From positions 1 to 23,211 of the IMG/VR virus record IMGVR_UViG_2563366999_000003: a stretch of DNA of 23,211 bases; one strand, 5' to 3'. How positions within the stretch are numbered: the stretch's first letter is position 1; every line of letters begins with the position of its first letter. The stretch is from a virus. Lineage: Duplodnaviria; Heunggongvirae; Uroviricota; Caudoviricetes. The notes beneath the pieces were generated by a model. The model worked only from the letters and a program-made list of their open reading frames with translations. It was not told the DNA's origin and did not search any database. Shown here in pieces: positions 9,794-18,843 of the stretch. The translations under genes and the position numbers were made by a program.

Positions 9794-10209
9794 GTTTTGC
9801 CCTGAAACTGGCGCGTGAGATGGGGCGCCCCGACTGGCGTGCCATGCTTGCCGGGATGTCATCCACGGAGTATGCCGACTGGCACCGCTTTTACAGTACC
9901 CATTATTTTCATGATGTTCTGCTGGATATGCACTTTTCCGGGCTGACGTACACCGTGCTCAGCCTGTTTTTCAGCGATCCGAATATGCATCCGCTGGATT
10001 TCAGTCTGCTGAACCGGCGCGAGGCTGACGAAGAGCCTGAAGATGATGTGCTGATGCAGAAAGCGGCAGGGCTTGCCGGAGGTGTCCGCTTTGGCCCGGA
10101 CGGGAATGAAGTTATCCCTACTTCCCCGGATGTGGCGGACATGACGGAGGATGACGTAATGCTGATGACAGTATCAGAAGGGATCGCAGGAGGAGTCCGG
10201 TATGGCTGA
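9371..10209 (+). CDS. G-T: Tail assembly chaperone GT, made by -1 programmed ribosomal frameshift from G into the T frame
   Basis: Slippery heptamer G GGA AAG at 9769-9775 in the G zero frame; the -1 frame is open from there to TGA 10207-10209 (...GKVFDGELSFALKLAREMGRPDWRAMLAGMSSTEYADWHRF...). Arrangement is established for lambda G/GT. Confidence 0.85.
9769..9775 (+). promoter_or_regulatory. -1 frameshift slippery site GGGAAAG (X XXY YYZ) for G to GT
   Basis: Heptamer in the correct register relative to the G frame (codons GGA 9770-9772, AAG 9773-9775), about 6 codons before the G stop. Same motif as the lambda G-T site. Confidence 0.85.
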
Positions 10210-12769
10210 ACCGGTAGGCGATCTGGTCGTTGATTTGAGTCTGGATGCGGCCAGATTTGACGAGCAGATGGCCAGAGTCAGGCGTCATTTTTCCGGTACG
10301 GAAAGTGATGCGAAAAAAACAGCGGCAGTCGTTGAACAGTCGATGAACCGACAGGCGCTGGCTGCACAGAAAGCGGGGATTTCCGTCGGGCAGTATAAAG
10401 CTGCCATGCGTATGCTGCCTGCGCAGTTCACCGACGTGGCCACGCAGCTTGCAGGCGGGCAAAGTCCGTGGCTGATCCTGCTGCAACAGGGCGGTCAGGT
10501 GAAGGACTCCTTCGGCGGGATGATCCCCATGTTCAGGGGACTTGCCGGTGCGATCACCCTGCCGATGGTTGGTATCACTTCGCTAGCGGTGGCGACCGGT
10601 GCGCTGGCGTATGCCTGGTATCAGGGTGACTCAACCCTGTCTAATTTCAACAAAACGCTGGTCCTTTCCGGTAATCAGGCGGGACTGACGGCAGATCGTA
10701 TGCTGGCCCTGTCCAGATCCGGGCAGGCGGCAGGGCTGACGTTTAACCAGACCAGCGAGTCACTGACGGCGCTGGTGAATGCCGGTGTACGTGGTGGTGA
10801 GCAGTTTGAGGCAATCAGCCAGAGTGTGGCGCGTTTCTCCTCTGCATCCGGCGTGGAGGTGGACAAGGTCGCTGAAGCCTTCGGGAAGCTGACCACAGAC
10901 CCGACGTCGGGACTGACAGCGATGGCGCGCCAGTTCCATAACGTGACGGCGGAACAGATTGCGTATGTTGCTCAGTTGCAGCGTTCCGGCGATGGGGCCG
11001 GGGCATTGCAGGCGGCGAACGAGGCCGCAACGAAAGGGTTTGATGACCAGACCCGCCGCCTGAAAGAGAACATGGGTACGCTGGAGACCTGGGCAGACAG
11101 GACTGCGCGGGCATTCAAATCCATGTGGGATGCGGTGCTGGATATTGGTCGCCCGGACTCCTCTGCTGATATGCTCGCCAAAGCTGAAAAGGCTTTTGAT
11201 GAAGCGGATAAAAAATGGCAGTGGTATCAGAGCCGAAGCCACCGGCGCGGTAAAACCTCAGCATTTCTTGCCAATCTCCGTGGAGCATGGGAGGACAGAG
11301 CGAATGCGCAACTTGGGCTTTCAGCCGCCACGTTGCAGGCCGATCTTGAAAAGGCCAGAGAGATGGCAGCAAAGGACTGGGCCGACTCTGAGGCATCACG
11401 GCTGAAATATACCGAAGAGGCGCAGAAGGCTTACGAACGCCTGCAGACGCCGCTGGAGAAATATACCGCCCGTCAGGAAGAACTGAACAAGGCACTGAAG
11501 GACGGGAAAATCCTGCAGGCAGATTACAACACGCTGATGGCGGCGGCGAAAAAGGACTATGAAGCGACGCTGAAAAAGCCGAAACAGTCCGGCGTGAAGG
11601 TGTCTGCGGGCGATCGTCAGGAAGACAGTGCTCATGCTGCCCTGCTGACGCTTCAGGCTGAACTCCGGACGCTGGAGAAGCATGCCGGAGCAAATGAGAA
11701 AATCAGCCAGCAGCGCCGGGATTTGTGGAAGGCAGAAAGTCAGTTCGCGGTACTGGAGGAGGCGGCACAACGTCGCCAGCTGTCCGCACAGGAGAAATCC
11801 CTGCTGGCGCATAAAGATGAGACGCTGGAGTACAAACGCCAGCTGGCTGCACTTGGCGACAAGGTTACGTATCAGGAGCGCCTGAACGCGCTGGCGCAGC
11901 AGGCGGATAAATTCGCACAGCAGCAACGGGCAAAACGGGCCGCCATTGATGCGAAAAGCTGGGGGCTGACTGACCGGCAGGCAGAACGGGAAGCCACGGA
12001 ACAGCGCCTGAAGGAACAGTATGGCGATAATCCGCTGGCGCTGAATAACGTCATGTCAGAGCAGAAAAAGACCTGGGCGGCTGAAGACCAGCTTCGCGGG
12101 AACTGGATGGCAGGCCTGAAGTCCGGCTGGAGTGAGTGGGAAGAGAGCGCCACGGACAGTATGTCGCAGGTAAAAAGTGCAGCCACGCAGACCTTTGATG
12201 GTATTGCACAGAATATGGCGGCGATGCTGACCGGCAGTGAGCAGAACTGGCGCAGCTTCACCCGTTCCGTGCTGTCCATGATGACAGAAATTCTGCTTAA
12301 GCAGGCAATGGTGGGGATTGTCGGAAGTATAGGCAGCGCCATTGGCGGCGGCGCATCAGCGTCAGGCGGTACAGCCATTCAGGCAGCTGCGGCGAAATTC
12401 CATTTTGCGGCCGGAGGGTTTACGGGAACCGGCGGCAAATATGAGCCAGCGGGGATTGTTCACCGTGGTGAATTTGTCTTCACGAAGGAGGCAACCAGCC
12501 GGATTGGCGTAGGAAATCTTTACCGGCTGATGCGCGGCTATGCCACCGGCGGTTATGTCGGTACACCGGGCAGCATGGCGGACAGCCGGTCGCAGGCGTC
12601 CGGGACGTTTGAGCAGAATAACCATGTGGTGATTAACAACGACGGCACGAACGGTCAGATAGGGCCACAGGCACTGAAGGCGGTTTATGACGTAGCCCGT
12701 AAGGCGGCAATGGATGTTGTGACCGGGCAGATGCGCGATGGTGGTCTGTTCTCCGGAGGTGGACGATGA
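10202..12769 (+). CDS. H: Tail tape measure protein H (855 aa)
   Basis: ATG 10202 just upstream of the T-frame stop; very long ORF with coiled-coil-rich centre and Gly-rich C-terminal region, in the lambda H position. Stop overlaps M start (ATGA). Confidence 0.95.
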   Translation: MAEPVGDLVVDLSLDAARFDEQMARVRRHFSGTESDAKKTAAVVEQSMNRQALAAQKAGISVGQYKAAMRMLPAQFTDVATQLAGGQSPWLILLQQGGQVKDSFGGMIPMFRGLAGAITLPMVGITSLAVATGALAYAWYQGDSTLSNFNKTLVLSGNQAGLTADRMLALSRSGQAAGLTFNQTSESLTALVNAGVRGGEQFEAISQSVARFSSASGVEVDKVAEAFGKLTTDPTSGLTAMARQFHNVTAEQIAYVAQLQRSGDGAGALQAANEAATKGFDDQTRRLKENMGTLETWADRTARAFKSMWDAVLDIGRPDSSADMLAKAEKAFDEADKKWQWYQSRSHRRGKTSAFLANLRGAWEDRANAQLGLSAATLQADLEKAREMAAKDWADSEASRLKYTEEAQKAYERLQTPLEKYTARQEELNKALKDGKILQADYNTLMAAAKKDYEATLKKPKQSGVKVSAGDRQEDSAHAALLTLQAELRTLEKHAGANEKISQQRRDLWKAESQFAVLEEAAQRRQLSAQEKSLLAHKDETLEYKRQLAALGDKVTYQERLNALAQQADKFAQQQRAKRAAIDAKSWGLTDRQAEREATEQRLKEQYGDNPLALNNVMSEQKKTWAAEDQLRGNWMAGLKSGWSEWEESATDSMSQVKSAATQTFDGIAQNMAAMLTGSEQNWRSFTRSVLSMMTEILLKQAMVGIVGSIGSAIGGGASASGGTAIQAAAAKFHFAAGGFTGTGGKYEPAGIVHRGEFVFTKEATSRIGVGNLYRLMRGYATGGYVGTPGSMADSRSQASGTFEQNNHVVINNDGTNGQIGPQALKAVYDVARKAAMDVVTGQMRDGGLFSGGGR

Positions 12770-13095
12770 AAACCTTCCGCTGGAAAGTGAAACCCGGTAT
12801 GGATGTGGCTTCGGCCCCTTCCGTAAGAAAGGTGCGCTTTGGTGATGGCTATTCCCAGCGAGCGCCTGCCGGGCTGAATGCCGACCTGAAAACGTACAGC
12901 GTGACGCTTTCTGTTCCCCGTTGGGAGGCCACGGCGCTTGAGTCGTTTCTGGCTGAGCACGGGGGCTGGAAATCCTTTCTGTGGACGCCGCCTTATGAGT
13001 GGCGGCAGATAAAGGTGACCTGCGCAAAATGGTCGTCGCGGGTCAGTATGCTGCGTGTTGAGTTCAGCGCAGAGTTTGAACAGGTGGTGAACTGA
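12766..13095 (+). CDS. M: Minor tail protein M (109 aa)
   Basis: MKTFRWKVKPGMDVASAPSVRKVRFGDGYSQRAPAGLNADLKTYSVTLSVPRWEA... matches lambda gpM. The last base of its TGA stop is the A of the L start codon (TGATG). Confidence 0.94.
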   Translation: MKTFRWKVKPGMDVASAPSVRKVRFGDGYSQRAPAGLNADLKTYSVTLSVPRWEATALESFLAEHGGWKSFLWTPPYEWRQIKVTCAKWSSRVSMLRVEFSAEFEQVVN

Positions 13096-13793
13096 TGCAG
13101 GATATCCGGCAGGAAACACTGAATGAATGCACCCGTGCGGAGCAGTCGGCCAGCGTGGTGCTCTGGGAAATCGATCTGACAGAGGTCGGTGGAGAACGTT
13201 ATTTTTTCTGTAATGAGCAGAACGAAAAAGGTGAGCCAGTCACCTGGCAGGGGAGGCAGTATCAGGCGTATCCCATTCAGGGGAGCGGTTTTGAACTGAA
13301 TGGCAAAGGCACCAGTACGCGGCCCACGCTGGCAGTCTCTAACCTGTACGGTATGGTCACCGGGATGGCGGAGGATTTGCAGAGTCTGGTCGGCGGAACG
13401 GTGGTCAGGCGTAAGGTTTATGCCCGTTTTCTGGATGCGGTGAACTTCGTCAACGGAAACAGCGAAGCCGATCCGGAGCAGGAGGTGATCAGCCGCTGGC
13501 GCATCGAGCAGTGCAGCGAACTGAGCGCGGTCAGCGCGACCTTTGTGCTGGCCACACCGACGGAAACGGATGGCGCTGTTTTTCCGGGGCGTATCATGCT
13601 GGCCAACACCTGTACCTGGACCTATCGCGGTGATGAGTGCGGTTATAGCGGTCCGGCTGTCGCGGATGAATATGACCAGCCAACGTCCGATATCACGAAG
13701 GATAAATGCAGCAAATGCCTGAGCGGTTGTAAGTTCCGCAATAACGTCGGCAACTTTGGCGGCTTCCTTTCCATTAACAAACTTTCGCAGTAA
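13095..13793 (+). CDS. L: Minor tail protein L (232 aa)
   Basis: MQDIRQETLNECTRAEQSASVVLWEIDLTEVGGERYFFCNEQNEKGEPVTWQGRQYQAYPIQGSGF... matches lambda gpL; Cys-rich C-terminus present. Confidence 0.94.
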   Translation: MQDIRQETLNECTRAEQSASVVLWEIDLTEVGGERYFFCNEQNEKGEPVTWQGRQYQAYPIQGSGFELNGKGTSTRPTLAVSNLYGMVTGMAEDLQSLVGGTVVRRKVYARFLDAVNFVNGNSEADPEQEVISRWRIEQCSELSAVSATFVLATPTETDGAVFPGRIMLANTCTWTYRGDECGYSGPAVADEYDQPTSDITKDKCSKCLSGCKFRNNVGNFGGFLSINKLSQ

Positions 13794-13798
13794 ATCCC

Positions 13799-14542
13799 AT
13801 GACACAGACAGAATCAGCGATTCTGGCGCACGCCCGGCGATGTGCGCCAGCGGAGTCGTGCGGCTTCGTGGTAAGCACGCCGGAGGGGGAAAGATATTTC
13901 CCCTGTGTGAATATCTCCGGTGAGCCGGAGGATTATTTCCGGATGGCTCCGGAGGACTGGCTGCGGGCAGAGATGCAGGGTGAGATTGTGGCGCTGGTCC
14001 ACAGTCATCCCGGTGGTCTGCCCTGGCTGAGTGAGGCTGACCGGCGGCTGCAGGTGCAGAGTGATTTGCCGTGGTGGCTGGTCTGCCGGGGGGAGATTCA
14101 TAAGTTCCGCTGTGTGCCGCATCTCACCGGGCGGCGCTTTGAGCACGGGGTGACGGACTGTTACACACTGTTCCGGGATGCTTACCATCTGGCGGGGATT
14201 GAGATGCCGGACTTTCATCGTGAGGATGACTGGTGGTGTAACGGCCAGAATCTCTATCTGGATAATCTGGAGGCAACGGGGCTGTATCAGGTGCCGTTGT
14301 CAGCGGCGCAGCCGGGCGATGTGCTGCTGTGCTGTTTTGGTTCATCGGTGCCGAATCACACCGCCATTTACTGCGGCGACGGCGAGCTGCTGCACCATAT
14401 TCCTGAACAACTGAGTAAACGAGAGAGGTACACCGACAAATGGCAGCGACGCACACACTCCCTCTGGCGTCACCGGGCATGGCACGCATCTGCCTTTACG
14501 GGGATTTGCAACGATTTGGCCGCCGCATCGACCTTCGTGTGA
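13799..14542 (+). CDS. K: Tail tip assembly protein K (247 aa as called here): N-terminal JAMM/MPN metalloprotease-like domain plus C-terminal NlpC/P60-like domain
   Basis: ORF opens with ATG 13799, 5 nt after the L stop. Contains E19-x-C-G, then H68-S-H70-x7-S78-x2-D81 (complete JAMM motif) and Cys121 (DCYTLF) plus downstream His (NHTAIY) typical of NlpC/P60. From the internal Met49 onward it matches lambda gpK as conventionally annotated. Confidence 0.85.
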   Translation: MTQTESAILAHARRCAPAESCGFVVSTPEGERYFPCVNISGEPEDYFRMAPEDWLRAEMQGEIVALVHSHPGGLPWLSEADRRLQVQSDLPWWLVCRGEIHKFRCVPHLTGRRFEHGVTDCYTLFRDAYHLAGIEMPDFHREDDWWCNGQNLYLDNLEATGLYQVPLSAAQPGDVLLCCFGSSVPNHTAIYCGDGELLHHIPEQLSKRERYTDKWQRRTHSLWRHRAWHASAFTGICNDLAAASTFV

Positions 14543-15081
14543 AAACGGGGGCTGAAGCCATCCGGGCGCTGGCCACACAGCTTCCGTCGTTTCGCCAGAA
14601 ACTGAATGAGGGCTGGTATCAGGTACGGATTGCCGGGCGTGATGCAGGCGAAAATGAATTATCTGCCCGTCTTAATGAACCGCTGGCAAATGGTGCCGTG
14701 ATCCACATCGTACCGCGTCTTGCGGGAGCAAAAAGTGGCGGTGTGTTTCAGGCGGTGCTGGGTGCGGCGTTGATTGCTACGGCAATCTGGATGCCGGGGA
14801 TCAGTATCGCTTTCAGTGACATTCTCTTTTCAATGGGTGCGGCGATGACGCTTGGCGGTGTTGCACAGATGCTGGCACCGAAAGCGAGTACCGCAACAAC
14901 GACCAGCACGGATAACGGAAAGCAGAACACCTATTTCTCATCACTGGATAACATGGTTGCCCAGGGCAATGTTCTGCCCGTTCTGTTCGGTGAAATGCGC
15001 GTGGGGTCACGTGTGGCATCTCAGGAGATCAGTACAGCTGATGAAGGTGATGGTGGTGAAATTGTGGTGATTGGTCGCTGA
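14440..15081 (+). CDS. I: Tail tip assembly protein I (213 aa), ubiquitin-like N-terminus
   Basis: ATG 14440 inside the 3' end of K in another frame (103-nt overlap, as in lambda K/I); MAATHTLPLASPGMARICLYGDLQRFGRRIDLRVKTGAEAIRALATQLP... matches lambda gpI. Confidence 0.92.
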   Translation: MAATHTLPLASPGMARICLYGDLQRFGRRIDLRVKTGAEAIRALATQLPSFRQKLNEGWYQVRIAGRDAGENELSARLNEPLANGAVIHIVPRLAGAKSGGVFQAVLGAALIATAIWMPGISIAFSDILFSMGAAMTLGGVAQMLAPKASTATTTSTDNGKQNTYFSSLDNMVAQGNVLPVLFGEMRVGSRVASQEISTADEGDGGEIVVIGR

Positions 15082-15141: not shown

Positions 15142-18100
15142 ATGGGTAAAGGCAGCAGTAAGGGGCATACCCCGCGCGAAGCGAAGGACAACCTGAAGTC
15201 CACGCAGTTGCTGAGTGTGATCGATGCCATCAGCGAAGGGCCGATTGAAGGTCCGGTGGATGGGTTAAAAAGCGTGCTGCTGAACAGTACGCCGGTGCTG
15301 GACAGTGAGGGGAATACCAATATCTCCGGCGTCACGGTGGTGTTCCGGGCAGGTGAGCAGGAGCAGACTCCGCCGGAGGGATTTGAATCCTCCGGTTCCG
15401 AGACGGTGCTGGGTACGGAAGTGAAATATGACACGCCGATCACCCGCACCATCACGTCTGCAAATATCGACCGTCTGCGCTTTACCTTCGGTGTGCAGGC
15501 ACTGGTGGAAACCACCTCAAAAGGGGATCGGAATCCGTCGGAAGTCCGCCTGCTGGTTCAGATACAGCGTAACGGTGGCTGGGTGACGGAAAAAGACATC
15601 ACCATTAAGGGCAAAACCACCTCGCAGTATCTGGCCTCGGTGGTGGTGGATAACCTGCCGCCGCGCCCGTTCAGTATCCGGATGCGCAGGATGACACCGG
15701 ACAGCACCACAGACCAGCTGCAGAACAAAACGCTCTGGTCGTCATACACCGAAATCATCGATGTGAAACAGTGCTACCCGAACACGGCACTGGTTGGCGT
15801 ACAGGTGGACTCAGAGCAGTTCGGCAGTCAGCAGGTGAGCCGTAATTATCATCTGCGCGGGCGTATTCTGCAGGTGCCGTCGAACTATAACCCGCAGACG
15901 CGGCAATACAGCGGTATCTGGGACGGAACGTTTAAGCCAGCATACAGCAATAACATGGCCTGGTGTCTGTGGGATATGCTGACCCATCCACGCTACGGCA
16001 TGGGGAAACGTCTTGGTGCGGCGGATGTGGACAAATGGGCGCTGTATGTCATCGGCCAGTACTGCGACCAGTCAGTGCCGGACGGCTTTGGCGGCACGGA
16101 GCCGCGCATCACCTGTAATGCGTACCTGACCACACAGCGCAAGGCGTGGGATGTGCTCAGTGATTTCTGCTCGGCGATGCGCTGTATGCCGGTATGGAAC
16201 GGGCAGACGCTGACGTTCGTGCAGGACCGGCCGTCGGATAAGGTGTGGACCTATAACCGCAGTAATGTGGTGATGCCGGATGATGGCGCGCCGTTCCGCT
16301 ACAGCTTCAGCGCCCTGAAGGACCGCCATAATGCCGTTGAGGTGAACTGGATTGACCCGAACAACGGCTGGGAGACGGCGACAGAGCTTGTTGAAGATAC
16401 GCAGGCCATTGCCCGTTACGGTCGTAATGTCACGAAGATGGATGCCTTTGGCTGTACCAGTCGGGGGCAGGCACACCGAGCCGGGCTGTGGCTGATTAAA
16501 ACGGAACTGCTGGAAACGCAGACCGTGGATTTCAGCGTGGGCGCAGAAGGGCTTCGCCATGTGCCGGGCGATGTTATTGAAATCTGCGATGATGACTATG
16601 CGGGTATCAGCACCGGCGGGCGCGTGCTGGCGGTGAACAGCCAGACCCGGACGCTGACGCTCGACCGTGAAATCACGCTGCCATCCTCCGGTACCACGCT
16701 GATAAGCCTGGTTGACGGAAGCGGCAATCCGGTCAGCGTGGAGGTCCAGTCCGTCACCGACGGCGTGAAGGTAAAAGTGAGCCGTGTTCCTGACGGCGTT
16801 GCAGAATACAGCGTGTGGGGGCTGAAGCTGCCGACGCTGCGCCAGCGCCTGTTCCGCTGTGTGAGTATCCGTGAGAACGATGACGGCACGTATGCCATCA
16901 CTGCCGTGCAGCATGTACCGGAAAAAGAAGCCATCGTGGATAACGGGGCGCACTTTGACGGCGACCAGAGCGGCACGGTGAATGGTGTCACGCCGCCAGC
17001 GGTACAGCACCTGACCGCAGAAGTCACCGCAGACAGCGGGGAATACCAGGTGCTGGCGCGCTGGGACACGCCGAAGGTGGTGAAGGGCGTGAGCTTTATG
17101 CTTCGCCTGACCGTGGCAGCGGATGACGGCAGTGAGCGGCTGGTCAGCACGGTCCGGACGACGGAAACCACATACCGCTTCAGGCAGCTGGCGCTGGGAA
17201 ACTACAGGCTGACAGTCCGGGCGGTAAATGCGTGGGGACAGCAGGGCGATCCGGCGTCGGTATCGTTCCGGATTGCCGCCCCGGCAGCGCCGTCACAGAT
17301 TGAGCTGACGCCGGGCTATTTTCAGATAACCGCCACGCCGCATCTTGCGGTTTATGATCCGACGGTACAGTTTGAGTTCTGGTTTTCTGAAACGAAGATT
17401 TCAGATGTCTCACAGGTGGACAAATCTGCCCGCTATCTTGGTACGGCACTGTACTGGGTAGCCTCCGGCCAGAATATTAAGCCGGGCCATGATTATTATT
17501 TTTATATCCGCAGTGTGAATACCATTGGTAAATCGGCATTCGTGGAGGCTGTCGGCCAGCCGGGTAATAATCCTGAAGAGTATCTCAATTTTTTTGAAGG
17601 GAAAATAAACAGCACCCTGCTGGGGCAGGAGCTGAATGATCGTATTAATGCCTCTGCATTGCGCAGTGAAGTTGAGCAACTGGAGGATGAGGTCAATCAG
17701 CGACTGGAGAGTGATATTGCCGAGGTGACCCAAAAAATCGGGGAAACTGAAAACAGCCTCACGCAGCTGGTTGCTAAAAAAAATGATGAGCAGTCACTGG
17801 CCATATCCCAGGTGAGTCAGAAAGTGGACAACGTCAGTAGCGAACTCACGCAAACGGTCAGTCAGAGTAATGAGGAGAATGCACGCCAGATAGCGCAGGT
17901 TCGTCAGTATGTGGATGAAAAAAGCAGTGAAATCATCTCGACGACAGACAAAAAACTGGGCGAGCAGGAAGCAACAATCCAGCAGATACAAAAGGTTCAG
18001 ACAGACACCAGTAATAACCTGAACAGTATGTGGGCCGTGAAACTGCAGCAGATGCAGGATGGTCGCCTTTACATTGCGGGTATCGGTGCCGGTATTGAGA

Positions 18101-18843
18101 ATACCCCTGACGGTATGCAGAGTCAGGTGCTGCTGGCGGCAGACAGGATTGCGTTCATTAATCCGGAGAACGGTAACACCACTCCAGCACTGGTCACGCA
18201 GGGGGGACAGACGTTTCTCAATGAAGCGCTGATTAAGACCCTTATTGCTCCCACAATTACCAGTGGTGGCAATCCTCCGGCATTTTCCCTGACATCAGAC
18301 GGAAAGCTGACCGCTAAAAATGCGGATATCAGTGGCAGTGTGAATGCGAACTCAGGGACGCTCAACAACGTCACGATAAATGAGAACTGTCAGATTAAGG
18401 GGAAACTGTCCGCCAACCAGATTGAAGGCGATATTGTCAAAACGGTCAGCAAGTCTTTCCCCCGCACGAGCACTTATGCCAGCGGCACCATTACGGTCAC
18501 GATTAGTGATGATCAGAAGTTTGACCGACAGGTCATGATCCCGGCTCTGCTGTTTAAAGGAAGCAGGAAGGAAAATTATGGCAGTAATAATCAACAGTCT
18601 TATGTTTATTCTGTATGCCGTTTGCAGGTAACGAAAAACGGGACAGAAATTTTTAACCAGTCAACAACGGATGCTCCGGCGGTTTTTTCTTCCGTTATTG
18701 ATATGCCTGCGGGGCAGGGAACGTTGACGTTAAAGTTTACGGTCTCTTCTTCAATGGTCAATAACTGGACACCGACAACCAGTATCAGCGATTTGCTTGT
18801 TGTGGTGATGAAGAAATCCACCGCAGGTATCACGATTAGCTGA
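15142..18843 (+). CDS. J: Central tail fibre / host specificity protein J (1233 aa)
   Basis: ATG 15142 preceded by GAGG; N-terminal and central parts ([42 protein letters not shown]...) match lambda gpJ. The product is about 100 aa longer than I recall for lambda J, with an extended coiled-coil segment and a divergent C-terminal region. Confidence 0.95.

What the first reader, a model, noticed from the sequence alone, without database searches (positions are those of the whole stretch)
13799..14000. K should start at 13799: the JAMM catalytic Glu lies upstream of the traditionally annotated start
The ORF is open from an ATG 5 nt after the L stop. The complete JAMM/MPN metalloprotease signature is present: E19-x-C-G upstream, then H68-x-H70-x7-S78-x2-D81. 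As I recall, lambda K is conventionally annotated as 199 aa beginning at the Met that is residue 49 here, which would cut off the strand carrying the catalytic Glu. Tight packing (L stop to K ATG is 5 nt) and domain integrity both favour the 247-aa product, a JAMM plus NlpC/P60 two-domain protein.
Basis: partly seen in the sequence, partly recalled or inferred. Interest (0 to 1): 0.4.

Follow-up and report, generated by a model that had tools for sequence, protein, structure and literature searches.

The report
Full-length 247-residue tail protein K
The phage tail-assembly gene K in this window does start at 13799 and encodes a 247-residue protein with two protease-like domains. This is already the standard gene model for its relatives; the shorter 199-residue K of the lambda reference record comes from one base missing in that old sequence.

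Summary
Observation confirmed. The L gene ends with TAA at 13791-13793. Five bases later, an ATG at 13799 opens a 247-codon frame that runs to 14542. The frame carries E19-S-C-G and H68-x-H70-x7-S78-x2-D81.

Interpretation supported:
- Pfam scores the 247-aa product as a complete Prok-JAB domain plus NlpC/P60. The 199-aa form falls below the JAB cut-off.
- Across 74 distinct close relatives, codons 1-48 show coding-type selection (pN/pS 0.22 in frame).
- In 79 distant homologues (32-59% identity), P17, E19, C21, G22, N38 and F47 are invariant or nearly so. Met49 is not conserved (13 of 80 sequences).
- AlphaFold models residues 1-48 as a helix and two strands of a JAMM fold (pLDDT 97).

That record lacks one G after position 14266. 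Every independently sequenced lambda I checked has it.

A second cause of 199-aa calls is that Met49 follows a strong GGAGG, while the true start has no Shine-Dalgarno sequence and abuts the L stop.

Nothing here is new in kind. The two-domain architecture was published by 2006. NCBI's pipeline and a 2025 lambda record already annotate 247 aa. The practical value is that 199-aa gpK, still used in recent literature, lacks the catalytic Glu.

The parts
13791..13793 (+). Stop codon (TAA) of tail tip gene L
   Evidence: L is the 232-aa ORF at 13095-13793.
13794..13798 (+). 5-nt L-K spacer (ATCCC) with no Shine-Dalgarno sequence upstream of the K start
   Evidence: Anti-SD duplex energy is +0.7 kcal/mol. 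The spacer is conserved in 55 of 83 close sequences; a 4-nt variant occurs in 21.
13799..14542 (+). Gene K, full length: 247 aa plus stop, predicted 28.2 kDa
13799..13942 (+). The disputed first 48 codons: helix 3-15 and strands 21-27 and 30-36 of the JAB domain
   Evidence: On its own this piece hits Prok-JAB at E = 4.9e-5. pN/pS is 0.22 in frame, against 7.0 and 2.7 in the other two frames. pLDDT is 97-98.
13853..13864 (+). Codons E19-S20-C21-G22, the JAMM catalytic Glu motif
   Evidence: Among 80 aligned sequences: E19 in 79, C21 in 75, G22 in 80. Aligns with P-N-E-A-C-G of the solved JAB domain 2KKS.
13805..14113 (+). JAB/MPN+ (JAMM) metalloprotease-like domain, residues 3-105
   Evidence: Pfam PF14464, 53.2 bits. 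Foldseek matches PfJAMM1 5LD9/5LDA at rmsd 2.6-2.7 A, and also AMSH, CSN5 and Rpn11.
13927..13931 (+). Internal GGAGG (within codons P43-E44-D45), 11 nt upstream of Met49. It attracts gene callers.
   Evidence: Duplex energy -9.5 kcal/mol. A ribosome-binding site is annotated here in OM418625. Two close relatives have GGAAG instead.
13933..13933 (+). Position equivalent to the G that is missing from reference lambda after J02459:14266
   Evidence: Alignment A1, site survey, and the 14266 C>CG variant in lambda-gt10 (PMC6760142).
13943..13945 (+). Met49 ATG, the conventional lambda K start. Here it is an internal codon.
   Evidence: Met in only 13 of 80 aligned sequences, Ile in 50. One close relative has ATA.
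14000..14041 (+). Codons H68-S-H70-x7-S78-x2-D81, the zinc-binding part of the JAMM motif
   Evidence: H68, H70 and D81 invariant; S69 and S78 in 76 of 80.
14129..14470 (+). NlpC/P60 (C40) papain-like peptidase domain, residues 111-224, with C121, H187 and H199
   Evidence: Pfam PF00877, 48 bits. C121 in 79 of 80, H187 in 79 of 80, H199 in 80 of 80. Foldseek matches MepS/Spr and Acd33800.
14440..15081 (+). Gene I: ubiquitin-like domain, Gly-rich linker and C-terminal plug. It overlaps the 3' end of K in another frame. I is the predicted substrate of K.
   Evidence: Pfam Lambda_tail_I covers residues 14-97. The prediction is from Iyer et al. 2006 (PMC1779556).

Best explanation
Gene K of this lambdoid phage is a single 247-codon gene (13799-14542). 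It encodes an N-terminal JAMM/MPN+ metalloprotease-like domain fused to a C-terminal NlpC/P60 cysteine-peptidase domain.

**Start of translation.** Translation most likely begins at the ATG at 13799. That codon has no Shine-Dalgarno sequence and lies 5 nt after the L stop, so I infer it is reached by ribosomes terminating on L (translational coupling).

**Role of the first 48 residues.** They form helix 1 and the first two strands of the JAMM fold and carry the catalytic Glu (E19). A protein starting at Met49 would have a broken metalloprotease domain.

**Why 199 aa is so widespread.**
- Reference lambda lacks a G after 14266, which frameshifts the gene at codon 45.
- Met49 is preceded by a strong GGAGG that gene callers prefer.
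- Annotators copy the lambda record.

**Function (inferred, not shown).** K is a non-virion assembly protease of the tail tip. Following Iyer et al. 2006, its JAMM domain probably cuts the ubiquitin-like N-terminal domain off gpI, after the Gly-Gly at residues 100-101.

The confidence given applies to the gene model (start at 13799, two-domain 247-aa product). The functional part is much less certain.
For: **Domains.** Pfam finds a complete Prok-JAB domain only with the long start. The solved JAB domain 2KKS aligns from residue 7, including E-x-C-G. The AlphaFold model has pLDDT 97.2 and pTM 0.91 with ordered residues 1-48. Its N-terminal half matches JAMM deubiquitinases and its C-terminal half matches NlpC/P60 enzymes.

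**Close relatives.** All 80 IMG/VR loci match through residues 1-246 or 1-247. Variable sites in codons 1-48 fall 6/3/19 by codon position, and pN/pS is 0.22 in frame against 7.0 and 2.7 out of frame.

**Distant relatives.** A scan of 1.84 billion representative proteins shows homologues of 35-60% identity and about 230-260 aa aligning from query residues about 4-10 to their own residues about 4-15. In the 80-sequence alignment E19 is present in 79, G22 and N38 in all 80, P17 and C21 in 75 each, and F47 in 76. Met49 is present in 13. In three distant loci, K overlaps or abuts the L stop (-4, -1 and +11 nt), the starts have weak or no SD, and there is no in-frame start codon at the position matching Met49 (the only internal candidates, at residues 62-66, have weak SD).

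**The lambda reference.** It lacks one G. The exact reference 56-mer is found in only 4 of 71 matching records: J02459, its RefSeq copy, one UNVERIFIED record and one record whose gene coordinates are the same as the reference's. Independent lambda sequences all have the G and an open 247-aa frame: LC730321, PV340536, KT232076, the imm21 and imm434 hybrids and DE3; so does the lambda-like phage HK630. Lambda-gt10 in MutaMouse also has 14266 C>CG (PMC6760142).

**Gene-caller choice.** Three of the four contigs checked that carry 199-aa calls have the long frame open; the fourth was too short upstream to tell. The SD energy is -9.5 kcal/mol at Met49 and +0.7 at M1.

**Function.** gpK is absent from virions (PMC10721106). 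Cryo-EM models of gpI start at residue 101 or 134/135.
Against: - There is no direct evidence on the protein's N-terminus. I found no N-terminal sequencing, and the lambda ribosome-profiling paper was not available.
- The ATG at 13799 has no Shine-Dalgarno sequence, while Met49 has a good one. Some internal initiation cannot be excluded.
- Translational coupling, catalytic activity and the substrate are all inferred.
- The unresolved N-terminus of gpI in cryo-EM could reflect disorder rather than cleavage.
Confidence: 0.87

Rival explanations
1. Two products. The 247-aa protein is made from 13799. In addition, a 199-aa protein (22.9 kDa) is made by internal initiation at Met49, driven by the GGAGG at 13927-13931. 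This would be a nested in-frame pair, as seen in other lambda genes.
For: GGAGG pairs with the anti-SD at -9.5 kcal/mol, 11 nt upstream of the ATG at 13943. The motif and Met49 are kept in almost all close relatives. Gene callers and curators pick this start.
Against: - Met49 is Ile in 50 of 80 aligned family members and Met in only 13.
- One close relative has ATA at this codon and two have GGAAG.
- Three distant loci have no in-frame start at the matching position.
- GGAGG here encodes the conserved P-E dipeptide, so protein constraint explains its conservation.
- The short product would contain a JAB domain without helix 1, two strands and the Glu.
- An 11-nt spacer is longer than optimal (general knowledge).
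Confidence: 0.1
2. The traditional model: K is only the 199-aa protein starting at Met49 (13943), and 13799-13942 is untranslated spacer or a separate small ORF.
For: This is the annotation in J02459/NC_001416, DE3, HK630 and the lambda imm21 hybrid. Met49 has a strong SD. In the reference sequence the upstream frame is broken.
Against: - The 48 codons show in-frame purifying selection.
- They match the JAB profile on their own.
- They hold near-invariant family residues.
- They are confidently folded into the domain.
- In this window and in nearly all other records the frame is continuous.
- A 149-nt untranslated gap would be unlike the overlapping or abutting H-M-L junctions of this gene cluster.
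Confidence: 0.03
3. The one-base difference in reference lambda is a real mutation of the laboratory strain, comparable to its known stf frameshift. Laboratory lambda would then make a truncated K with a dead JAMM domain, so the JAMM domain would be dispensable.
For: Four database records carry the deletion. Laboratory lambda does carry at least one real frameshift, in stf (PMC10721106).
Against: Of the four records, two are the same sequence, one is UNVERIFIED, and one has the same K, L and I coordinates as the reference. Independently sequenced laboratory lambda derivatives from the USA, Japan and elsewhere all carry the G, including lambda-gt10. This rival concerns lambda only; the window itself has an intact frame.
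Confidence: 0.05

Closest known systems
Lambda tail tip assembly protein K (gpK; 'TAPK' of Iyer et al. 2006). NCBI's annotation pipeline names it 'C40 family peptidase'; PHROGs files it under phrog_30.
   Same: About 96% identical DNA and the same L-K-I-J gene order. The JAB + NlpC/P60 architecture is as published (PMC1779556). The 247-aa gene model is already used for mEp460, for a 2025 lambda record and for E. coli prophages. The protein matches phrog_30 end to end.
   Different: It differs only from the reference-lambda gene model (199 aa), which stems from a missing base. Codon 45 is Asp here and Ala in lambda.
Stand-alone prokaryotic and archaeal JAMM/MPN+ proteases that process ubiquitin-like proteins (PfJAMM1, HvJAMM1 desampylase, DSY2949/2KKS)
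   Same: Same fold and the same E...H-S-H-x7-S-x2-D motif. The gene sits next to one for a ubiquitin-like protein with a C-terminal Gly-Gly.
   Different: K is fused to an NlpC/P60 domain and lies in a phage tail operon. It scores far below the desampylase equivalog cut-off (29 against 130 bits). Its presumed substrate is a linear fusion (the ubiquitin-like domain within gpI), not an isopeptide conjugate. Its activity has not been tested.
NlpC/P60 (C40) peptidases such as E. coli MepS/Spr
   Same: Papain-like fold and a conserved Cys-His-His triad.
   Different: K is cytoplasmic and not found in the virion. I saw no sign of a signal peptide, though I did not test for one. A role in protein processing rather than cell-wall cleavage is plausible but unproven.

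Membership tests
JAMM/MPN+ metalloprotease (Pfam Prok-JAB PF14464) | Profile match above the curated cut-off that covers the whole domain | tested here: met
   53.2 bits against a cut-off of 25, residues 3-105 on profile positions 3-113 of 114. The 199-aa form scores 23.9 bits, below the cut-off.
JAMM/MPN+ metalloprotease (Pfam Prok-JAB PF14464) | Motif E-x(n)-H-S/T-H-x7-S-x2-D (as given in PMC300881) | tested here: met
   E19, H68-S69-H70, S78 and D81 are in the translation. All are invariant or conserved in at least 95% of 80 aligned sequences.
JAMM/MPN+ metalloprotease (Pfam Prok-JAB PF14464) | MPN alpha/beta fold | tested here: met
   The AlphaFold model (pLDDT 97.2) matches PfJAMM1 (rmsd 2.6-2.7 A over 108-110 columns), AMSH, CSN5, Rpn11 and 2KKS. 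This is a predicted structure, not a solved one.
JAMM/MPN+ metalloprotease (Pfam Prok-JAB PF14464) | Zinc binding and peptidase or isopeptidase activity | not testable with these tools
   Needs biochemistry. I found no experimental paper on gpK activity.
NlpC/P60 (C40) peptidase (Pfam PF00877) | Profile match above the curated cut-off | tested here: met
   48 bits against a cut-off of 23, residues 111-224 on profile positions 1-105 of 105.
NlpC/P60 (C40) peptidase (Pfam PF00877) | Catalytic Cys and His residues conserved | tested here: met
   C121 in 79 of 80, H187 in 79 of 80, H199 in 80 of 80. Assigning them as the catalytic triad is an inference from the family, not a measurement.
Lambda-type tail tip assembly protein K | Located between the L (Phage_tail_L) and I (Lambda_tail_I) genes, upstream of J | tested here: met
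   Window gene order H-M-L-K-I-J. The same order holds in lambda and in a distant locus.
Lambda-type tail tip assembly protein K | Full-length similarity to family members, including the N-terminus | tested here: met
   phrog_30 matches residues 1-247. Relatives of 247 aa dominate the protein database hits. Distant homologues align from about residue 4-10.
Lambda-type tail tip assembly protein K | Needed for tail assembly but absent from the virion | not testable with these tools
   Reported for lambda gpK in the literature. Not tested for this phage.

The most novel reading that the evidence does not exclude
gpK may be an active, phage-encoded deubiquitinase-like processing enzyme. Its JAMM domain, intact only in the 247-aa form, would clip the ubiquitin-like domain off gpI after Gly100-Gly101, releasing the C-terminal plug that is built into the tail tip. 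One of its two peptidase domains might also make the still-unexplained gpH to gpH* cut. The field's reliance on the truncated 199-aa model would help explain why no such activity has been reported. The gpI half of this idea was predicted in 2006. The new support is circumstantial: one cryo-EM model of gpI begins exactly at residue 101.
Probability: 0.35. Interest if true: 0.6.

Novelty: already known. Interest (0 to 1): 0.25.

Why it matters
The value is practical. Reference lambda (J02459/NC_001416), the records copied from it, and recent structural and review papers still treat gpK as 199 residues. A construct or structure prediction built on that model lacks the catalytic Glu and three secondary-structure elements of the metalloprotease domain. 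Experiments on gpK's role in tail-tip assembly would then start from a broken enzyme.

Pointing to the single missing G after 14266 gives curators a concrete fix. It also makes the 2006 prediction testable: that K processes the ubiquitin-like domain of I.

For this window itself nothing changes, because the 247-aa model is what current pipelines already produce.

Tried and rejected
- **Literature on the lambda K start or the 14266 base.** Searches found no paper that links the missing base to gene K. The only relevant result was a variant table for lambda-gt10 in MutaMouse.
- **Ribosome profiling.** The lambda ribosome-profiling paper is not in the library, whether looked up by DOI or by a guessed PMC id. 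No direct translation data could be consulted.
- **The open frame as evidence.** Rejected as weak on its own: 6-15% by chance.
- **A programmed frameshift in lambda.** Rejected, because every other sequence simply has the extra G.
- **Frameshifted DNA behind the large 199-aa database clusters.** Rejected: in three of the four contigs checked the long frame is open, and the fourth was too short upstream to tell.
- **NCBIfam.** It gave no specific K model. The only hits were a weak desampylase match and a weak phage NlpC match, both below their cut-offs.

Full report
**What is in the window.** The window is the late (head and tail) region of a lambdoid phage or prophage. It is about 94-95% identical to several lambda-like phages over about 21 kb and identical to none of them. 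Around the finding, the + strand carries H (10202-12769), M (12766-13095), L (13095-13793), a 247-codon ORF (13799-14542), I (14440-15081) and J (15142-18843).

L ends with TAA at 13791-13793. Five bases (ATCCC) follow, and the ATG at 13799 opens the frame. The translation contains E19-S-C-G and H68-S-H70-PGGLPWL-S78-E-A-D81. Met49 is the ATG at 13943.

**The open frame alone is weak evidence.** A stop-free run of 48 codons occurs in 6% of off-frame windows here and in 15% of shuffles. I therefore tested the segment in other ways.

**Domain evidence.**
- Pfam scores the 247-aa product as Prok-JAB (53.2 bits, residues 3-105, profile positions 3-113 of 114) plus NlpC/P60 (48 bits, residues 111-224).
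- From Met49 the JAB match drops to 23.9 bits, under the cut-off of 25, and covers only profile positions 63-113.
- The 48-residue piece alone hits Prok-JAB at E = 4.9e-5.
- A solved JAB domain (2KKS) aligns with residues 7-109, pairing its P-N-E-A-C-G with P-A-E-S-C-G here.
- An AlphaFold model built on 80 homologues has pLDDT 97.2 and pTM 0.91. Residues 1-48 form helix 3-15 and strands 21-27 and 30-36.
- Foldseek matches the N-terminal half to PfJAMM1 (rmsd 2.6-2.7 A), AMSH, CSN5, Rpn11 and 2KKS. It matches the C-terminal half to MepS/Spr-type NlpC/P60 enzymes.

**Evolutionary evidence from close relatives.** All 80 related viral loci match through residues 1-246 or 1-247. Among 74 distinct nucleotide sequences, variable sites in codons 1-48 fall 6/3/19 by codon position. 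pN/pS is 0.22 in frame, against 7.0 and 2.7 in the other two frames. The rest of the gene gives 0.11.

**Evolutionary evidence from distant relatives.** A scan of 1.84 billion representative proteins found 2752 relatives. Full-length ones at 35-60% identity are about 230-260 aa long and align from query residues about 4-10 to their own residues about 4-15.

In an alignment of the window's K with 79 homologues of 32-59% identity:

| Position | Sequences with the window's residue (of 80) |
|---|---|
| G22, N38, H68, H70, D81 | 80 |
| E19 | 79 |
| F47 | 76 |
| P17, C21 | 75 each |
| Met49 | 13 (Ile in 50) |

In three distant loci the K start overlaps or abuts the L stop (-4, -1 and +11 nt). The starts have weak or no Shine-Dalgarno sequence, and there is no in-frame start codon at the position matching Met49.

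**Why lambda K is listed as 199 aa.** NC_001416 annotates K at 14276..14875. Aligning it with the window, with mEp460 and with a re-sequenced lambda imm21 hybrid shows that the reference reads GGAGGC-TATTTCC where the lambda-type sequences read GGAGGCGTATTTCC. One G is missing after position 14266. In the reference, the ATG five bases after L therefore opens only a 76-aa ORF that runs out of frame with K.

The exact reference 56-mer occurs in 4 of 71 matching phage records:
- J02459
- its RefSeq copy
- an UNVERIFIED record
- a record whose K, L and I coordinates are the same as the reference's.

Independent lambda sequences all have the G and an open 247-aa frame: LC730321 (48,503 bp), PV340536, KT232076, the imm21 and imm434 hybrids and DE3; so does the lambda-like phage HK630. 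The lambda-gt10 transgene of MutaMouse also shows 14266 C>CG in every copy (PMC6760142). From memory, not from a tool, the commercial lambda cI857 Sam7 sequence is also listed with this insertion. The most likely reading is a 1982 gel-reading error.

**A second cause of 199-aa calls.** Met49 is preceded by GGAGG (13927-13931, -9.5 kcal/mol, 11-nt spacer), while the ATG at 13799 has no Shine-Dalgarno sequence (+0.7). Large database clusters of 199-aa K exist. In three of the four contigs I checked behind them, the 247-aa frame is open; the fourth was too short upstream to tell. The short call is therefore a gene-caller choice. Some curated records copy the lambda start even though their own sequence has the G: DE3, HK630 and imm21, the last with an annotated ribosome-binding site.

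**How it most likely works.**
- *Shown:* one continuous, conserved, selected reading frame that encodes a complete JAMM domain and an NlpC/P60 domain.
- *Inferred:* initiation at 13799 by coupling to termination of L. I base this on the absent Shine-Dalgarno sequence and the conserved abutting junction.
- *Inferred from family knowledge:* E19 activates the zinc-bound water. H68, H70 and D81 bind zinc (motif roles as described for AfJAMM in PMC300881).
- *Function:* gpK is needed for tail assembly but is not found in virions.

Iyer et al. 2006 proposed that the JAB domain of K releases the ubiquitin-like domain of gpI by cutting at its C-terminal glycine. Here gpI has the Lambda_tail_I ubiquitin-like domain at residues 14-97, followed by ...AGAKSGG (G100-G101). 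Cryo-EM models of virion gpI begin at residue 101 (PMC11101478) or at 134/135. That fits cleavage but does not prove it.

**Rivals.**
- *Extra short isoform from Met49.* It cannot be excluded. It is disfavoured because Met49 and the GGAGG are not conserved beyond close relatives, and because the product would carry a broken domain.
- *Start only at Met49.* Contradicted by every comparative test.
- *Real strain mutation in lambda.* Unlikely given the survey, and irrelevant to this window.

**Comparison with what is known, and novelty.** JAB + NlpC/P60 in 'TAPK' was published in 2006, which cites a 2003 NlpC/P60 survey for it. Lambda K was listed among JAMM proteins in 2003-2004 under the accession AAA96551, which I take to be the 199-aa GenBank product. 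The 247-aa model is what NCBI's pipeline gives for the nearest E. coli prophage (99.5% identical), for mEp460 and for a 2025 lambda record.

The finding is therefore correct but already known in substance. What still seems under-appreciated is that the reference record is wrong by one base. A 2020 review quotes '199 in total' and sees only the peptidase domain. I found no paper that states the correction explicitly. I score interest at 0.25.

Noticed in passing
window 14440-14542 (K/I overlap) and 14539: The start of gene I is annotated inconsistently among relatives. Three starts are in use: the ATG at 14440 (lambda style, 103-nt overlap with K), Met14 at 14479 (NCBI pipeline), and the GTG at 14539 (mEp460, PV340536, metagenome calls). 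The Pfam ubiquitin-like domain covers residues 14-97 of the long form. The GTG start cuts the match to profile positions 26-83 of 83, so it probably truncates gpI in the way Met49 truncates K.
   Followed up: partly
window 14737-14742 (codons G100-G101 of I): gpI has a Gly-Gly directly after its ubiquitin-like domain. One cryo-EM model of lambda gpI starts at residue 101 (PMC11101478). This fits the 2006 prediction that the JAMM domain of K removes the ubiquitin-like domain. No experiment was found.
   Followed up: partly
L001 (NC_001416) locus 1134-1364, i.e. lambda 14133-14363: Reference lambda has an unannotated 76-aa ORF between L and K. It is the frameshifted N-terminus of K. PHROGs holds a 76-position family of 'unknown function' (phrog_7305) that matches K residues 1-76. 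It looks like a family built from N-terminal K fragments, i.e. an annotation artefact.
   Followed up: partly
window 15142-18843: The central tail fibre protein J is 1233 aa here, against 1132 aa in lambda by my own recollection. The ORF translation shows a Ser/Gln/Glu-rich repetitive stretch that looks like a coiled coil by eye, in the region before the C-terminal receptor-binding part. This suggests a different host-recognition module. H is 855 aa, against 853 in lambda.
   Followed up: no
window 10202-12769 (H) and literature: The 2025 Ur-lambda paper says it is unknown how the tape-measure protein gpH is cut to gpH*. K is a non-virion assembly protein with two peptidase domains encoded three genes downstream, which makes it an obvious untested candidate.
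   Followed up: no
OR974322.1 and OR474059.1 (L088, L094): Two recent 'lambda' records reproduce the reference's missing G. One is described as an isolate from chicken cloacal swabs and has the same K, L and I coordinates as the reference. The other is flagged UNVERIFIED. They may be reference-guided assemblies or control-DNA contamination rather than independent sequences.
   Followed up: no
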